Below, one piece after another: positions 1 through 4,270 of a stretch of 4,270 bases of DNA. The translations under genes and the position numbers were made by a program. Origin of the DNA: a virus (Duplodnaviria; Heunggongvirae; Uroviricota; Caudoviricetes); the IMG/VR virus record IMGVR_UViG_2711768074_000007, positions 1 to 4,270 of that record, one strand, 5' to 3'. Every line of letters starts with the position of its first letter. The first letter of the stretch is position 1. The notes under the pieces are model-generated. The model was not told where the DNA came from, did not search any database, and saw nothing but the letters and a program-made list of their open reading frames with translations.

Positions 1-132
1 GTTGGTACGGGATGCTATCACGGCGATGCCCTGACGGTTTATCCCTACACCCCGGAGTCCATTATTGTCGAAGGGGATTATTTCCCTGCCCCAGCCATTC
101 ATTTAATTGATAATCTGAGAGTAAACGCATGA
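1..132 (+). CDS. 3' end of upstream late gene (partial; probably a baseplate protein by P2-like gene order). Frame 1 is open from the window edge to TGA at 130..132
   Basis: Frame 1 has no stop from position 1 until TGA at 130-132, which overlaps the tail fibre ATG (ATGA overlap at 129-132), typical of coupled phage late genes. No start codon in window. Product is inferred only from position upstream of the fibre gene. Confidence 0.4.
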   Translation, partial: VGTGCYHGDALTVYPYTPESIIVEGDYFPAPAIHLIDNLRVNA

Positions 133-1694
133 CAGTGAAATACTACGCCATTCTGACTAATCAGGGCGCGGCACGACTGGCTAACGCGACGATGCTCGGC
201 AGTAAGCTGAATCTGACGCAAATGGCCGTTGGTGATGCAAATGGTGTGTTACCAACACCAGACCCTGCACAAACAAAACTGATTAACCAGAAACGCATTG
301 CACCGCTGAATCTTCTGAGTGTTGACCCTAACAATCAGAGCCAGATTATTGCGGAGCAAATCATCCCTGAAAACGAGGGAGGATTCTGGATCCGTGAGAT
401 TGGTCTTTATGATGATGAAGGTGTACTCATTGCGGTGGCAAACTGCCCGGAAACGTACAAACCGCAGTTGCAGGAAGGCAGTGGACGCACCCAGACTATC
501 CGCATGATTCTGGTTGTCACGAACACCGAAGCCATCACGCTGAAAATCGACCCGTCTGTGGTTCTGGCAACCCGCAAATATGTGGATGATAAAATATCAG
601 AGCACGAACAGTCACGACGTCACCCGGACGCCTCGCTGACCGTAAAAGGTTTTACTCAGTTAAGCAGTGCAATTAACAGTGAATCAGAAACACTGGCCGC
701 AACACCGAAAGCGGTTAAGGCTGCATATGACCTGGCTAACGAGAAATATACCGCCCAGAACGCCACCACTACACAAAAAGGGATTGTTCAGCTCAGTAGC
801 GCCACGAACAGCACGTCTGAAACACTGGCAGCGACACCAAAAGCTGTTAAGGCGGTAATGGATGAAACGAACAAGAAAGCACCATTAAACAGCCCGGCAC
901 TGACCGGAACGCCAACAACACCAACAGCGCCACAGGGGACTAATAGTACCCAGATCGCAAGCACGGCTTTCGTTATGGCCGCGATTGCCGCACTTGTAGA
1001 TTCGTCACCTGATGCACTGAACACGCTGAACGAACTGGCTGCGGCGCTGGGCAATGACCCGAATTTTGCGACCACCATGACTAACGCGCTTGCGGGTAAG
1101 CAACCGAAGGATGCCACCCTGACGGCGCTGGCGGAGCTTGCTACATCAGCAGATAAACTCCCATATTTTACAGGGGCAGATCGTGCCGCGTTAACCGCGT
1201 TGACAAGTGTTGGACGTGCCATTCTTGGTAAAACCAGCACTCAGGGAGTTCTTGATTACCTTGGTTTGGGAGAAGGCTCTGCATTACCGGTTGGGGTGCC
1301 TGTTCCGTGGCCTTCAGCCACTCCGCCAACGGGCTGGCTGAAATGTAACGGTGCAGCATTTTCTTCTGAAATGTATCCCAGACTGGCAAGGGCTTATCCC
1401 ACCAATAAATTACCGGATTTACGCGGTGAATTTATCCGTGGCTGGGATGATGGGCGCGGGATTGATGCGGGACGTACCCTGCTTTCAGGGCAGGATGGTA
1501 CAAGTTTTTCTCATTACGGAGGTAATTTCGACATTGGGTCTGGTCATTCAATCAATAACTATGACCAAATTGTTTCTAACCAACCAGGCTTTTCCCGTTT
1601 TTCATTTGCAGGGCCTTCACGAGGCGGTGGGGTTAATTATGTAACCATTCGTCCTCGTAATATTGCGTTTAATTACATCGTAAGGGCAGCATGA
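129..1694 (+). CDS. Tail fibre protein, P2 gpH-like. Constant shaft is codons 1-378 (129..1262); the C-terminal ~143 codons (1263..1691) are variable tip cassette V1, currently expressed
   Basis: 521-aa ORF. N-terminal region (MTVKYYAILTNQGAARLANAT...MAVGDANG...GFWIREIGLYDDEGVLIAVAN) and repeated QLSSA(I/T)NS(E/T)SETLAATPKAVKA motifs match what I recall of P2 H / Mu S type tail fibres. C-terminus contains the LPDLRGEFIRGWDDGRG motif shared by all cassettes in the window. Confidence 0.92.
   Translation: MTVKYYAILTNQGAARLANATMLGSKLNLTQMAVGDANGVLPTPDPAQTKLINQKRIAPLNLLSVDPNNQSQIIAEQIIPENEGGFWIREIGLYDDEGVLIAVANCPETYKPQLQEGSGRTQTIRMILVVTNTEAITLKIDPSVVLATRKYVDDKISEHEQSRRHPDASLTVKGFTQLSSAINSESETLAATPKAVKAAYDLANEKYTAQNATTTQKGIVQLSSATNSTSETLAATPKAVKAVMDETNKKAPLNSPALTGTPTTPTAPQGTNSTQIASTAFVMAAIAALVDSSPDALNTLNELAAALGNDPNFATTMTNALAGKQPKDATLTALAELATSADKLPYFTGADRAALTALTSVGRAILGKTSTQGVLDYLGLGEGSALPVGVPVPWPSATPPTGWLKCNGAAFSSEMYPRLARAYPTNKLPDLRGEFIRGWDDGRGIDAGRTLLSGQDGTSFSHYGGNFDIGSGHSINNYDQIVSNQPGFSRFSFAGPSRGGGVNYVTIRPRNIAFNYIVRAA
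1249..1274 (+). other. Crossover site 1 (Gin/Hin/Cin-type 26-bp site, direct orientation, core TT at 1261-1262) at the constant/variable junction of the tail fibre gene
   Basis: ttcttgattacc-tt-ggtttgggagaa: 12-bp half-sites around a 2-bp core. Inner half ggtttgggagaa is identical to the inner half of site 5 in inverted orientation. Identity with the other repeat copies begins exactly at the core. Falls in the Y-L-G-L-G-E codons. Confidence 0.65.
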
Positions 1695-1722
1695 AAACGT
1701 TGGTTTGGGGGAAGGCTCTGCG
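1261..1722. repeat. Left copy of a ~462-bp inverted repeat (core of site 1 through V1 and site 2)
   Basis: By eye, identical to the reverse complement of 3719..4180; the embedded ORFs 1351..1644(+) and 3796..4089(-) translate to the same 97 aa, and V1 equals V5 at protein level. Confidence 0.8.
1688..1713 (+). other. Crossover site 2 (direct orientation, core TT at 1700-1701); overlaps the V1 stop codon and the start of cassette V2
   Basis: agcatgaaaacg-tt-ggtttgggggaa. Left half carries the TGA stop of the tail fibre gene (gca gca tga); right half encodes G-L-G-E of cassette V2. Confidence 0.65.
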
Positions 1723-2163
1723 TTGCCCGTTGGTGTGCCCGTTCCATGGCCCTCAGCCACGCCGCCAACGGGGTGGCTGAAATGTAACGGCGCAGCATTT
1801 TCTTCTGAAATGTACCCCAATCTGGCAAAGGCCTACCCCACCAATAAATTACCGGATTTACGCGGTGAATTTATCCGTGGCTGGGATGATGGGCGCGGGG
1901 TGGATGCCGGAAGGGGCATCTTAAGCATGCAGGGGTGGTTAACAGGAAGTCATTATCATAATATTCGGTCATGGGATGCGTGGGATAACACGGTGCTGGT
2001 GCCAAATGACAAAGGAGGGGATAGTCTGTTGTCGACAGATAACGCCGTCCGGCAAGGTGCAATTAACGGTAGATTTACCAGTCAATACAGAACTGAATCC
2101 TCAGAGGGGAATGAAACCCGCCCACGCAATATTGCCTTCAATTATATTGTGAGAACCGCATAA
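1705..2163 (+). CDS. Silent alternative tail-fibre tip cassette V2 (no ATG and no ribosome-binding site of its own; would be expressed only after DNA rearrangement fuses it to the constant part)
   Basis: Open frame begins just after an in-frame TAA at 1681-1683; the ORF track starts it at TTG 1705. N-terminal 65 aa are nearly identical to V1 (GEGSALPVGVPVPWPSATPPTGWLKCNGAAFSSEMYP...DLRGEFIRGWDDGRG); C-terminus is ETRPRNIAFNYIVRTA; the middle is divergent. Confidence 0.8.
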   Translation: MGEGSALPVGVPVPWPSATPPTGWLKCNGAAFSSEMYPNLAKAYPTNKLPDLRGEFIRGWDDGRGVDAGRGILSMQGWLTGSHYHNIRSWDAWDNTVLVPNDKGGDSLLSTDNAVRQGAINGRFTSQYRTESSEGNETRPRNIAFNYIVRTA

Positions 2164-2774
2164 TGAATAACGCGATATTAAATGATGACCTTATTGCCGT
2201 ACAGGCAGGAAACATCGTCGTTTATAACTATGATGGTGAGACACGGGAATATATTTCCGAATCAACTGAATATCTTGCTGTGGGTGTCGGTATTCCGGTA
2301 AATTCCTGTTTAGATGCCCCGGGCGCACATAAAGCGGGCTATGCTATCCGCCGTTCGGAGAATTTAAGTTCATGGGAGTATGCGCCAGACCATCGTGGTG
2401 AAACCGTCTATAGCACTGACACGGGAAACACCGAAGAAATCACGGCGCTGGGTGACTACCCGAAAAATACAACCACTATCGCCCCGTTAACACCATACGA
2501 TAAATGGGATGGTGAAAAATGGGTGACAGATACTGAGGCACAACATCGTGCCGCAGTAGAAGCGGCAGAAACCAAGCGTCAGTCACTGGCTGATGCGGCA
2601 ATGGCTTCCATAAGTCTGATTCAGTTGAAGTTGCAGGCCGGGCGGAAGTTGACGCAGGCAGAAACCACCCGGCTTAATGCCGTGCTGGATTATATAGACG
2701 CGCTGAACGCAATGGATATAAACATGGCACCAGATATCAACTTGCCGGAAATACCACTGGCAGCAGCCAGTTGA
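2163..2774 (+). CDS. Tail fibre assembly chaperone (Tfa / P2 gpG / Mu U-like), cognate to cassette V2
   Basis: 203-aa ORF whose ATG overlaps the V2 stop (TAATG at 2161-2165). Position immediately downstream of a fibre tip, and its size, fit tail-fibre assembly proteins; family assignment is from memory, not a search. Confidence 0.7.
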   Translation: MNNAILNDDLIAVQAGNIVVYNYDGETREYISESTEYLAVGVGIPVNSCLDAPGAHKAGYAIRRSENLSSWEYAPDHRGETVYSTDTGNTEEITALGDYPKNTTTIAPLTPYDKWDGEKWVTDTEAQHRAAVEAAETKRQSLADAAMASISLIQLKLQAGRKLTQAETTRLNAVLDYIDALNAMDINMAPDINLPEIPLAAAS

Positions 2775-2780
2775 ATATAA

Positions 2781-3257
2781 CTAAGCCGCCCTTACGATAT
2801 AGTTAAATGCAATATTGCGGGGGCGGGTTTCACTACCACCTGTGTTACCAATACTTCCTCGTGAATGAAGCGTTGGTGATGGAATCAAACTCCCTCCTGT
2901 ATTTGTGGCATCAAGCCCCCTGCCTTGCGTATATGTTTTTTTGAAAATCGTGGCCAACTCCCATTCATCCTTTGTGTCATATCCATCGTTAGCTACAACA
3001 ATATGGCGGTGTTTTTCCAACATCCCGTTTTGAATGCTCAATAAAGCGCGTGCCGCATCAATTCCTCGCCCATCATCCCAGCCACGGATAAATTCACCGC
3101 GTAAATCCGGTAATTTATTGGTGGGGTAGGCCTTTGCCAGATTGGGGTACATTTCAGAAGAAAATGCTGCACCGTTACATTTCAGCCACCCCGTTGGCGG
3201 CGTGGCTGAGGGCCATGGAACGGGCACACCAACGGGCAGCGCAGAGCCTTCCCCCAA
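2781..3257 (-). CDS. Silent alternative tail-fibre tip cassette V3 (inverted orientation)
   Basis: Minus-strand ORF with the same conserved N-module (GEGSALPVGVPVPWPSATPPTGWLKCNGAAFSSEMYPNLAKAYPTNKLPDLRGEFIRGWDDGRG) and C-terminus (ETRPRNIAFNYIVRAA), with a unique middle. Begins at crossover site 3; no ATG. Confidence 0.8.
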   Translation of the reverse strand: MGEGSALPVGVPVPWPSATPPTGWLKCNGAAFSSEMYPNLAKAYPTNKLPDLRGEFIRGWDDGRGIDAARALLSIQNGMLEKHRHIVVANDGYDTKDEWELATIFKKTYTQGRGLDATNTGGSLIPSPTLHSRGSIGNTGGSETRPRNIAFNYIVRAA

Positions 3258-3273
3258 ACCAACGTTTTCATGC
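3248..3273 (-). other. Crossover site 3 (inverted orientation, core AA on the plus strand at 3260-3261)
   Basis: ttcccccaaacc-aa-cgttttcatgct; its reverse complement is identical to site 2. Overlaps the start of V3 and the stop of V4. Confidence 0.65.
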
Positions 3274-3735
3274 TGCCCTTACGATGTAATTAAACGCAAT
3301 GTTATGGGGGCGTGTTTCAGATGCTGTGCGAACTGAGCGAGAGGCGTCGAATGCCCATACAGAAGCACCATATCCTTCAATGATCTCAGTTGGTTGTAAG
3401 CCTACTGATAATATAGAGTCAGTTTGACTAAATGGTCCTGAATTAAGCGCATCTTCAAAAAGCTGAGTACGCCCAAAAGTGCCAACTATATTCTGAATAG
3501 CGTCAGACTGTGCAGACAGTAGGTTGCGCCCATTATCAACGCCCCGTCCGTCATCCCAGCCGCGAATAAATTCGCCCCGTAAATCCGGTAATTTATTGGT
3601 GGGGTAGGCCTTTGCCAGATTGGGGTACATTTCAGAAGAAAATGCTGCGCCGTTACATTTCAGCCACCCCGTTGGCAGCGTGGCTGAGGGCCATGGAACG
3701 GGCACACCAACGGGCAGCGCAGAGCCTTCCCCCAA
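3268..3735 (-). CDS. Silent alternative tail-fibre tip cassette V4 (inverted orientation)
   Basis: Minus-strand ORF with conserved N-module (one substitution, SATLPTGW) and conserved C-terminus (ETRPHNIAFNYIVRAA), with a unique middle that looks AT-richer by eye. Begins at crossover site 4. Confidence 0.8.
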   Translation of the reverse strand: MGEGSALPVGVPVPWPSATLPTGWLKCNGAAFSSEMYPNLAKAYPTNKLPDLRGEFIRGWDDGRGVDNGRNLLSAQSDAIQNIVGTFGRTQLFEDALNSGPFSQTDSILSVGLQPTEIIEGYGASVWAFDASRSVRTASETRPHNIAFNYIVRAA

Positions 3736-3752
3736 ACCAACGTTTTCATGCT
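3727..3752 (-). other. Crossover site 4 (inverted orientation, core AA at 3739-3740)
   Basis: ttcccccaaacc-aa-cgttttcatgct, identical to site 3. Overlaps the start of V4 and the stop of V5. Confidence 0.65.
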
Positions 3753-4174
3753 GCCCTTACGATGTAATTAAACGCAATATTACGAGGACGAATGGTTACA
3801 TAATTAACCCCACCGCCTCGTGAAGGCCCTGCAAATGAAAAACGGGAAAAGCCTGGTTGGTTAGAAACAATTTGGTCATAGTTATTGATTGAATGACCAG
3901 ACCCAATGTCGAAATTACCTCCGTAATGAGAAAAACTTGTACCATCCTGCCCTGAAAGCAGGGTACGTCCCGCATCAATCCCGCGCCCATCATCCCAGCC
4001 ACGGATAAATTCACCGCGTAAATCCGGTAATTTATTGGTGGGATAAGCCCTTGCCAGTCTGGGATACATTTCAGAAGAAAATGCTGCACCGTTACATTTC
4101 AGCCAGCCCGTTGGCGGAGTGGCTGAAGGCCACGGAACAGGCACCCCAACCGGTAATGCAGAGCCTTCTCCCAA
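3746..4174 (-). CDS. Silent tip cassette V5 (inverted orientation); protein identical to the currently expressed V1
   Basis: Translation from the TTG at 4174..4172 gives GEGSALPVGVPVPWPSATPPTGW...GGGVNYVTIRPRNIAFNYIVRAA, identical to residues 382-521 of the 129..1694 product. The ORF track extends the frame upstream to an ATG at 4231, which I treat as a fortuitous extension through site 5. Confidence 0.8.
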   Translation of the reverse strand: MGEGSALPVGVPVPWPSATPPTGWLKCNGAAFSSEMYPRLARAYPTNKLPDLRGEFIRGWDDGRGIDAGRTLLSGQDGTSFSHYGGNFDIGSGHSINNYDQIVSNQPGFSRFSFAGPSRGGGVNYVTIRPRNIAFNYIVRAA

Positions 4175-4191
4175 ACCAACGTTTTCGTCTT
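4166..4191 (-). other. Crossover site 5 (inverted orientation, core AA at 4178-4179); outermost site next to the invertase gene
   Basis: ttctcccaaacc-aa-cgttttcgtctt. Inner half ttctcccaaacc is the exact reverse complement of the inner half of site 1; the outer half differs from sites 3 and 4. Confidence 0.65.
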
Positions 4192-4230
4192 TATCCCTAC
4201 CTATACCAACTATGTATTTTTCACGAAACA

Positions 4231-4237
4231 AAGAGGA
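4231..4237 (+). promoter_or_regulatory. Shine-Dalgarno sequence (aagagga) for the invertase gene
   Basis: Purine-rich aagagga lies 8-9 nt upstream of the ATG at 4246. Confidence 0.5.
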
Positions 4238-4245
4238 TGTTTTTT

Positions 4246-4270
4246 ATGCAAATTGGCTATATTCGTGTGT
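4246..4270 (+). CDS. 5' end (8 codons) of a probable serine DNA invertase (Gin/Cin/Pin/Hin family); partial, runs off the window
   Basis: MQIGYIRV matches the characteristic N-terminus of serine invertases (M-x-IGY-x-RVS, with the catalytic Ser expected one or two codons past the window end). Good ribosome-binding site. Sits immediately beside an array of Gin-type crossover sites in tail fibre genes. Confidence 0.6.

What the first reader, a model, noticed from the sequence alone, without database searches (positions are those of the whole stretch)
1688..2774. Cassette V2 with its chaperone cannot reach the expression site by a single inversion
Site 2 has the same orientation as site 1, so recombination between them would be a deletion, which Gin-type invertases normally do not catalyse. 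To express shaft-V2 followed by the chaperone, the V2 module must first be flipped by s2 x s3, s2 x s4 or s2 x s5, then brought to the shaft by a second inversion at site 1. Alternatively, homologous recombination between the ~200-bp direct repeats at the starts of V1 and V2 would delete V1 and lock V2 in place. This implies a hierarchy of isomer frequencies and a built-in route to a locked, non-switching variant.
Basis: inference. Interest (0 to 1): 0.5.

Follow-up and report, generated by a model that had tools for sequence, protein, structure and literature searches.

The report
Known-type phage tail-fibre shufflon
This is an ordinary member of a long-known class of phage "shufflons", in which a DNA invertase swaps alternative tips onto a tail-fibre gene; needing two flips to express one tip follows from the layout and has already been seen experimentally in a sister prophage.

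Summary
Five crossover sites exist: s1 and s2 on the + strand, s3 to s5 inverted. V2 and a tail-fibre assembly gene lie behind s2, in the same orientation as s1. Enumeration gives 48 isomers, and V2 needs at least two inversions to be expressed.

The system is a Min-type multiple-inversion system in the gpH-like fibre gene of a P2-like E. coli prophage. Its sites match the published p15B mix sites at 1 to 3 mismatches. The neighbouring invertase is a close Gin relative.

The same architecture was shown to shuffle in the P2-like prophage of EPEC E2348/69 (Goldberg 2014). Assemblies of that strain differ by a whole-region inversion.

Shaft·V2 isomers occur in at least five complete genomes.

The "locked variant" inference fails. 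Deleting V1 leaves inverted sites, and natural two-cassette forms occur in both orientations.

The assembly gene is not V2-specific. It is the only such gene in the module and is antisense to the fibre operon in half of all isomers.

V5 is an exact inverted copy of V1 and may be an assembly chimera of isomers.

Low interest; already known.

The parts
1..132 (+). 3' end of the baseplate gene (phage tail protein I, P2 gpI-like)
   Evidence: Corresponds to the annotated CDS 2524-3132 of L001 and other loci.
129..1260 (+). Constant part of the tail-fibre gene (shaft, Sc): Phage_tail_fib N-terminal domain and fibre repeats
   Evidence: Pfam PF12571 at 2.7e-62 and PF03406. It is 99-100% identical in all related loci.
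1249..1274 (+). Crossover site s1: TTCTTGATTACC TT GGTTTGGGAGAA. Its reverse complement differs by 1 nt from p15B mixQ''R'.
1261..1694 (+). Cassette V1 (Collar domain), currently fused to the shaft to give a 521-aa fibre
   Evidence: ORF 129-1694; Pfam Collar.
1688..1713 (+). Crossover site s2: AGCATGAAAACG TT GGTTTGGGGGAA. It is a direct repeat of s1, and V1's stop codon lies in its left half.
   Evidence: it has 3 mismatches to p15B mixN''O'.
1700..2163 (+). Cassette V2 (Collar domain). It would give a 531-aa fibre when joined at the TT crossover.
   Evidence: In-frame fusion computed. An identical-length 1596-nt CDS is annotated in D72 and E2348/69.
2163..2774 (+). Tail-fibre assembly (chaperone) gene tfa, the only one in the module. 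It overlaps V2's stop codon (TAATG).
   Evidence: Pfam Caudo_TAP at 1.9e-31. It is always linked to V2 in related loci.
2781..3262 (-). Cassette V3 (Collar domain), tail to tail with tfa. V2-tfa-V3' forms the core invertible block and has no internal site.
   Evidence: the in-frame 537-aa fusion is.
3249..3274 (-). Crossover site s3 (+ strand: TTCCCCCAAACC AA CGTTTTCATGCT)
3268..3740 (-). Cassette V4 (Collar domain)
   Evidence: the in-frame 534-aa fusion is.
3727..3752 (-). Crossover site s4 (same sequence as s3)
3746..4179 (-). Cassette V5, an exact inverted copy of V1. It is either a real duplication or an assembly chimera.
   Evidence: There are 0 mismatches between 1261-1722 and its reverse-complement partner. 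Contig L171, built from modules 100% identical to the window's, is demonstrably chimeric.
4166..4191 (-). Crossover site s5, next to the invertase (+ strand: TTCTCCCAAACC AA CGTTTTCGTCTT; 2 mismatches to p15B mixMI''L')
4246..4270 (+). First 8 codons of the serine DNA invertase (MQIGYIRV)
   Evidence: Continuous with the 199-aa recombinase of L001, which has Resolvase and HTH_7 domains and matches Gin structures 3UJ3 and 4M6F at E about 1e-90.

Best explanation
Region 1688-2774 is site s2, cassette V2 and the tail-fibre assembly gene. Together they form the left part of the core invertible block V2-tfa-V3' of a Min-type (Din-family, Gin/Cin/Pin/Min) multiple-inversion system. The system sits in the gpH-like tail-fibre gene of a P2-like E. 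coli prophage.

A serine invertase encoded just to the right recombines any + oriented 26-bp site with any - oriented site at the central TT/AA dinucleotide. Each site joins a cassette head to a cassette tail, or to a flank. As a result, single cassettes always lie in sense orientation to the left of the core block and in antisense orientation to its right. The cassette next to the shaft is the one expressed.

V2 or V3 is expressed only when no single cassette lies between the shaft and the block. That is why V2 needs two inversions from the window's state. Shown here: the sites and their polarity, the in-frame fusions, the isomer graph, natural isomers including shaft·V2, and homology of the sites to mix sites. 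Inferred: that the enzyme acts here with the Fis/enhancer-imposed preference for inversion, and that the isomers differ in host range.
For: There are five sites against 0 expected by chance, and their polarity comes from the TT/AA core. All five cassettes fuse in frame to the shaft, giving 521, 531, 537, 534 and 521 aa. The breadth-first enumeration gives 48 states, with V2 at distance 2. The sites match the published p15B mix sites in every positional class: shaft junction, inter-cassette and invertase-proximal. The invertase matches Gin at about 1e-90. The rule that the block separates + cassettes from - cassettes holds in all 17 distinct complete loci, counting L011's inverted pair of blocks as one unit. 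Isomer pairs differ by one inversion: L169 against L170 (same strain lineage) and L001 against L253. L005 and L006 differ by two inversions. L021, L025 and L026 are three isomers of one cassette set. Shaft·V2-tfa(+) is contiguous in 5 complete genomes, and shaft·V3-tfa(-) in 5. Co-existence of four variants in E2348/69 was demonstrated by whole-genome sequencing and PCR (PMC4272514). The same module, with nine cassettes, occurs on a P1-like phage-plasmid.
Against: Only 8 codons of the invertase lie in the window, and the recombinational enhancer could not be examined. No read-level data exist for this particular sequence, so inversion at this very locus is inferred from relatives. The exact V1/V5 duplicate may be an assembly artefact, in which case the window is not one real molecule. 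It is not clear how the single tfa gene serves fibres in the half of isomers where it is antisense.
Confidence: 0.88

Rival explanations
1. One reading: deletion of V1, by homologous recombination between the 220-bp heads or by s1 x s2 resolution, produces a locked, non-switching shaft-V2 variant. Two-cassette loci would be such dead ends.
For: The direct repeat exists (220 nt, 90% identical, longest exact run 63 nt). Cassette number varies from 2 to 7 among near-identical prophages, and reaches 9 on a P1-like phage-plasmid, so cassettes are gained and lost over evolutionary time. Two-cassette shaft·V2-tfa-V3'-invertase loci exist (D72, AR_0013).
Against: After the deletion, shaft·V2 still faces s3 to s5 in inverted orientation, leaving 12 isomers. 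Two-cassette loci keep an intact recombinase gene and an inverted site. They are found in both orientations: D72 and AR_0013 as shaft·V2, STEC1589 and STEC1590 as shaft·V3. E2348/69, which has three cassettes, appears as shaft·V2 in one assembly and shaft·V1 in others.
Confidence: 0.05
2. The window is not one real molecule. It is an assembly path that merges two co-existing isomers of a four-cassette locus: 'shaft·V1|V2-tfa-V3'|V4'·inv' and 'shaft·V2-tfa-V3'|V4'|V1'·inv'. V1 would therefore be traversed twice. The second isomer would itself be the V2-expressing form.
For: V1 and V5 are identical over 462 nt, starting exactly at the crossover TT. Contig L171 (GCA_001266025.1) is built from modules 100% identical to the window's but carries the invertase flank at both ends in inverted orientation, which is impossible for one locus. 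Complete genomes with the same four cassettes (L001, L253) have V1 once. Other draft-derived loci show mirror-image duplicates (L016, L018, L035) or a palindromic block (L011).
Against: The complete genome of APEC37 (L009) carries V4 on both sides of the block, and the two copies differ by one indel. Real inverted duplicates therefore do occur. Unequal exchange followed by inversions would generate them.
Confidence: 0.4
3. The invertase itself occasionally resolves direct sites (s1 x s2), so V2 can reach the shaft in one step at a low rate.
For: Fis-independent Hin mutants delete and invert at equal rates (PMC4817059). Quasi-site use in SCU-101 shows that the enzyme family is not perfectly selective. 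Cassette number varies among relatives.
Against: The wild-type Fis/enhancer-dependent reaction proceeds through a -2 invertasome and gives unknotted inversion products. No junction found here distinguishes site-specific deletion from homologous deletion.
Confidence: 0.1

Closest known systems
Min multiple-inversion system of plasmid/prophage p15B (Sandmeier, Iida, Arber 1990 and 1992; sites as listed in PMC3241671)
   Same: A serine Din-family invertase sits next to a cluster of more than two 26-bp sites in both orientations, which fuse alternative tail-fibre 3' segments to one constant 5' part. The window's s1, s3/s4 and s5 differ from mixQ''R', mixN''O' and mixMI''L' by 1, 3 and 2 nt. Homologous cassettes and tfa occur on P1-like phage-plasmids at 86-93% nucleotide identity.
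   Different: The carrier here is a P2-like chromosomal prophage with a gpH-like shaft, not a P1-like plasmid prophage. There are five sites rather than six. The original p15B papers could not be read here, so the cassette-by-cassette correspondence was not checked.
Shufflon in the P2-like prophage of EPEC E2348/69 (Goldberg et al. 2014, PMC4272514)
   Same: The prophage backbone, shaft, invertase, tfa and cassettes V1, V2 and V3 are the same at 96-98% identity. Four co-existing variants were shown by PCR. A second-position V2 needs two inversions there too.
   Different: E2348/69 has three sites and four isomers. The window has five sites and 48 isomers (or four sites and 12 if V5 is an artefact), and it also carries cassette V4.
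Gin/G segment of phage Mu, Cin/C segment of P1 and Pin/P segment of e14
   Same: The recombinase family, the dix-type 26-bp sites and switching of the tail-fibre C-terminus.
   Different: Those systems have two sites and two states, and each variable part carries its own chaperone gene (U and U'). Here there are many cassettes and one chaperone gene. Related P2-like loci with pixR-type flanks and two different assembly genes represent that classical form.
R64 shufflon (Rci) and the bifidobacterial Rin system
   Same: The combinatorial logic is the same: multiple sites and alternative C-terminal cassettes.
   Different: Those use tyrosine recombinases and unrelated sites. Here the recombinase is serine-type.

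Membership tests
Din-family (Gin/Hin/Cin/Pin/Min) DNA inversion system, Min type | An adjacent serine recombinase with a Resolvase catalytic domain and an HTH_7 domain, closely related to Gin | tested here: met
   Only codons 1-8 are in the window (4246-4270). The continuous gene in L001, which matched the window through position 4270, has PF00239 at 1.5e-51 and PF02796 at 1.4e-12. It matches Gin structures 4M6F and 3UJ3 at 3e-91 and 2e-90.
Din-family (Gin/Hin/Cin/Pin/Min) DNA inversion system, Min type | [quoted passage not shown] | tested here: met
   There are five sites, each with the head half-site TTC(C/T)CCCAAACC and an AA core. They differ by 1-3 nt from the published mix sites.
Din-family (Gin/Hin/Cin/Pin/Min) DNA inversion system, Min type | More than two sites in both orientations, so that overlapping segments invert and several 3' segments can join one 5' constant part in frame | tested here: met
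   Two + sites and three - sites. All five fusions are in frame, and 48 isomers are reachable.
Din-family (Gin/Hin/Cin/Pin/Min) DNA inversion system, Min type | Inversion actually occurs, shown by isomers with breakpoints at the sites | tested here: met
   Shown for relatives, not for the window itself. L169 against L170 (same strain), L001 against L253, L005 against L006, and L021, L025 and L026. PCR proof is in PMC4272514.
Din-family (Gin/Hin/Cin/Pin/Min) DNA inversion system, Min type | A Fis-bound recombinational enhancer inside the 5' part of the invertase gene | not tested
   The gene is cut after 25 nt in the window, and no Fis-site analysis was done on the relatives.
Din-family (Gin/Hin/Cin/Pin/Min) DNA inversion system, Min type | Directionality: inversion strongly preferred over deletion between direct sites | not testable with these tools
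   Needs in vivo or in vitro recombination assays. The general property of the wild-type enzymes is taken from PMC4817059.
Caudovirales tail-fibre assembly protein (Tfa / gpG / gpU type) | A Caudo_TAP domain, encoded immediately downstream of a fibre tip | tested here: met
   PF02413 at 1.9e-31 over residues 78-198. Caudo_TAP_N is also recorded for the identical protein. The start overlaps V2's stop codon.
R64-type shufflon (Rci) | A tyrosine recombinase acting on sfx sites | tested here: not met
   The recombinase is serine-type, and the sites are dix/mix-type.

The most novel reading that the evidence does not exclude
The module has a single tail-fibre assembly gene, locked into the core block V2-tfa-V3'. 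It is antisense to the fibre operon in exactly half of all isomers, and always antisense when V3 is expressed. Both orientations are about equally common in complete genomes (17 against 20). No antisense ORF, sigma-70-like promoter or read-through route was found that would supply the chaperone in those states. Three readings remain open. Collar-domain tips may fold without Tfa. The gene may be expressed independently of orientation, possibly through the conserved TGT-N12-ACA dyad next to the invertase. Or half of the isomers may yield defective fibres, which would be an unrecognised cost or an extra layer of phase variation.
Probability: 0.2. Interest if true: 0.5.

Novelty: already known. 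Interest (0 to 1): 0.15.

Why it matters
For the claim as stated, it matters little. A cassette behind a directly oriented site needs two inversions in any multiple-inversion system, and this was implicit in the p15B Min work and in the four-variant scheme shown for E2348/69. The practical value is in annotation and assembly. These loci are common in E. coli prophages and P1-like plasmids. They are annotated as strings of small "phage tail proteins", and short-read assemblies of them can be chimeric. The one open biological point is how a single chaperone gene serves a shufflon in which it is antisense half of the time.

Tried and rejected
1. Read-through from the convergent tail operon as a source of tfa transcripts in flipped states. 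A 12-bp-stem hairpin with an A-run and a T-run lies between the invertase and the next gene (L001 7396-7425), so this is unlikely.

2. A sigma-70-like promoter inside V2 or in the s5-invertase spacer. None was found, and the total number of promoter-like sites equals the shuffled expectation.

3. The TGT-N12-ACA dyad (4213-4230) as a leftward P2-type late promoter. The dyad is conserved in Min-type flanks, but there is no credible -10 element at the expected spacing. It remains a side note only.

4. A second chaperone ORF antisense to tfa. There is no ORF of 60 aa or more.

5. Locating the window's own contig by exact protein look-up. Only the chimeric contig L171 was found.

6. Reading Sandmeier 1992 (PMC206102), and a guessed PMC id (PMC4384473) for the Johnson 2015 review. 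Neither id is held.

7. My first impression that tfa is always sense-oriented (9 of 9 loci) was a ranking bias of same-strand joining. Chaperone-anchored sampling removed it.

8. An R64-type shufflon was rejected because the recombinase is serine-type.
Full report
WHAT IS THERE

The window runs from the end of a P2 gpI-like baseplate gene into a gpH-like tail-fibre gene (129-1694). That gene has the Phage_tail_fib N-terminal domain, fibre repeats and a C-terminal Collar domain. Four further Collar-domain ORFs follow: V2 at 1705-2163 on the + strand, and V3 at 2781-3257, V4 at 3268-3735 and V5 at 3746-4231 on the - strand. A Caudo_TAP tail-fibre assembly gene lies at 2163-2774 on the + strand, and a gene beginning MQIGYIRV starts at 4246.

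A 26-nt motif occurs five times, twice on the + strand and three times on the - strand, with none expected in 200 shuffles. Written as 12 + 2 + 12 sites, they are:
- s1: TTCTTGATTACC-TT-GGTTTGGGAGAA (1249-1274)
- s2: AGCATGAAAACG-TT-GGTTTGGGGGAA (1688-1713)
- s3 and s4, + strand: TTCCCCCAAACC-AA-CGTTTTCATGCT (3249-3274 and 3727-3752)
- s5, + strand: TTCTCCCAAACC-AA-CGTTTTCGTCTT (4166-4191)

The asymmetric core dinucleotide fixes their polarity. s1 and s2 are direct repeats, and s3 to s5 are inverted relative to them.

WHAT IT IS

The sites are mix sites. A published table of Din-family sites (PMC3241671) lists three that correspond:
- p15B mixQ''R' (TTCCCCCAAACC AA GGTAATCAAGAA) differs by 1 nt from the reverse complement of s1.
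- mixN''O' (…AA CGTTTTTATGTG) differs by 3 nt from s3 and s4.
- mixMI''L' (…AA CGTTTTAGTCTT) differs by 2 nt from s5.

So each positional class of site has its p15B counterpart: shaft junction, inter-cassette and invertase-proximal.

The invertase gene is cut after 8 codons in the window. It continues without a break in L001, which matched the window through position 4270. There it is a 199-aa protein with Resolvase and HTH_7 domains, and it matches the Gin crystal structures at E about 1e-90.

Related loci are abundant. Of 5,426 complete E. coli genomes, 3,411 have some match to the window. The backbone is a P2-like prophage (V, W, J, I, H … invertase … convergent tail genes). The same cassette-plus-tfa module also sits on P1-like phage-plasmids. 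One of these, pKOr024_2, has nine cassettes and one tfa gene.

HOW IT WORKS

Every site joins a "tail" half to a cassette "head" half. The tail half is the shaft end, a cassette end containing the stop codon, or the invertase flank. V1, V4 and V5 each have one head and one tail. The segment V2-tfa-V3' has two heads and no internal site.

It follows that single cassettes must lie in sense orientation to the left of this core block and in antisense orientation to its right. The block itself can take either orientation. This rule holds in all 17 distinct complete loci I mapped, counting L011's inverted pair of blocks as one unit.

I enumerated all inversions between oppositely oriented sites:
- 48 isomers are reachable.
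- V3, V4 and V5 are one step from the window's state, and V2 is two steps away.
- There are six two-step routes. Three more start at s1.
- Of the 48 states, each of V1, V4 and V5 is expressed in 12, and V2 and V3 in 6 each. A walk with equal rates for all permitted inversions gives 27% for each single cassette and 10% each for V2 and V3.

All five cassettes join the shaft in frame at the TT core, giving fibres of 521, 531, 537, 534 and 521 aa. The 1596-nt shaft·V2 gene is annotated at exactly that length in D72 and E2348/69.

EVIDENCE THAT THE SHUFFLING IS REAL

- Two assemblies of the E2348/69 lineage differ by one whole-region inversion. One is shaft·V2-tfa(+)-V3'-V1'. The other is shaft·V1|V3-tfa(-)-V2'. 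Other assemblies of the strain are in the second type of state.
- EC9682 and CM2010-0578/1 carry the same proteins and differ only by inversion of the core block.
- JNEC-KY180 and N31 differ by the position of one cassette, which requires two inversions.
- Three IMG/VR genomes are three isomers of one four-cassette set, and one of them is shaft·V2.
- Synthetic junction queries find shaft·V2-tfa(+) as a single contiguous match in five complete chromosomes, and shaft·V3-tfa(-) in five.
- Goldberg et al. 2014 (PMC4272514) identified this very locus type in E2348/69 as a shufflon with three repeats and four variants. They confirmed all four by PCR and measured unequal abundances, with the forward variant of the large inversion at about 90%. 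In that three-site system, a second-position V2 also needs two inversions.

(a) "Locked" variant. Removing V1 leaves shaft·V2 facing three inverted sites. Natural two-cassette loci keep the invertase and occur in both orientations: D72 and AR_0013 against STEC1589 and STEC1590.

(b) "V2 with its chaperone". The assembly gene is the only one in the module and is physically tied to both V2 and V3. In the window's present state it is already co-oriented with the expressed shaft·V1 gene. It is sense-oriented in exactly half of the 48 states and never when V3 is expressed.

My first nine loci all showed tfa in sense orientation, but that was a ranking bias. Chaperone-anchored sampling gave about 12 sense against 10 antisense. 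The junction searches gave 17 against 20 among complete chromosomes.

How the fibre is chaperoned in the antisense states is unexplained. I found no antisense ORF and no promoter-like site. A strong hairpin lies between the invertase and the convergent operon.

A CAVEAT ABOUT THE WINDOW ITSELF

V5 is an exact inverted copy of V1, from the crossover TT through the next site (462 nt, 0 mismatches).

Contig L171 (GCA_001266025.1) is made of modules 100% identical to the window's but carries the invertase flank at both ends, which is impossible for one locus. It is therefore a short-read chimera of co-existing isomers. Complete genomes with the same four cassettes have V1 only once.

The window may thus merge "shaft·V1|V2…" with "shaft·V2-tfa-V3'|V4'|V1'·inv", and the latter would itself be the V2-expressing isomer. 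Against this, the complete genome of APEC37 has V4 on both sides of the block, and the copies differ by one indel. I put the chimera reading at about 0.4. It does not change the two-step conclusion.

COMPARISON AND VERDICT

This works like, and by every feature I could test is a member of, the Din-family Min-type multiple-inversion systems. Untested features are the Fis enhancer and directionality. The statement that wild-type enzymes of this family invert rather than delete rests on the literature (PMC4817059).

The finding is a correct but generic combinatorial property of a known system, and its one new inference (locking) is contradicted. Novelty: already known. Interest: low. The only item worth a follow-up is the single, orientation-dependent chaperone gene.

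Noticed in passing
window 2860-2881 (- strand); L003 4630-4690 and 5800-5850: In E. coli SCU-101, an inversion used a quasi-site inside V3 (CACCAACGC-TT-CATTCACG) as partner of a true site. Both reciprocal junctions are present. The result is an annotated 663-aa fibre made of the shaft, the N-terminal part of V3 and the whole of V2, with V3's C-terminal part left behind after tfa.
   Followed up: yes
window 4213-4230: The dyad TGTATTTTTCACGAAACA (TGT-N12-ACA) is the only such motif in the window. It lies between s5 and the invertase start codon. Its arms are conserved while its inner bases vary in all Min-type flanks, and it is absent from Pin-type flanks. From memory, it resembles the P2 Ogr-type activator site, but no convincing -10 element lies at the expected distance.
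   Followed up: partly
window 1261-1722 vs 3718-4179; L171 whole contig: V5 is an exact inverted copy of V1. An independent draft contig with identical modules has the invertase flank at both ends, showing that short-read assemblies of this locus can be chimeras of isomers. L011/L094/L174 (one IMG/VR contig) shows a palindromic double block of the same kind.
   Followed up: partly
window 2163-2774 and the whole invertible region: There is one tail-fibre assembly gene for four or five alternative tips. It is antisense to the fibre operon in half of the isomers, and both orientations are about equally frequent in genomes. Classical relatives with pixR-type flanks carry two different assembly genes instead.
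   Followed up: partly
L251 (pKOr024_2) 2621-10227; L250 (phage vB_EcoM-673R5): P1-like phage-plasmids carry the homologous module with up to nine Collar cassettes in tandem and one tfa gene. Cassettes V1, V3, X1, X2, X3 and X9 are shared with the P2-like prophages at 87-100% identity, which implies exchange of cassettes between the two phage types.
   Followed up: partly
L252 (E. coli EC10) 2802-5500: This is a degenerate version of the locus. The fibre gene is truncated, only a fragment of a diverged tfa remains, and V4 and V1 are intact next to the invertase.
   Followed up: no
L001 7396-7425: A 12-bp-stem hairpin flanked by an A-run and a T-run lies between the invertase gene and the convergent tail gene. 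It looks like a bidirectional terminator.
   Followed up: no
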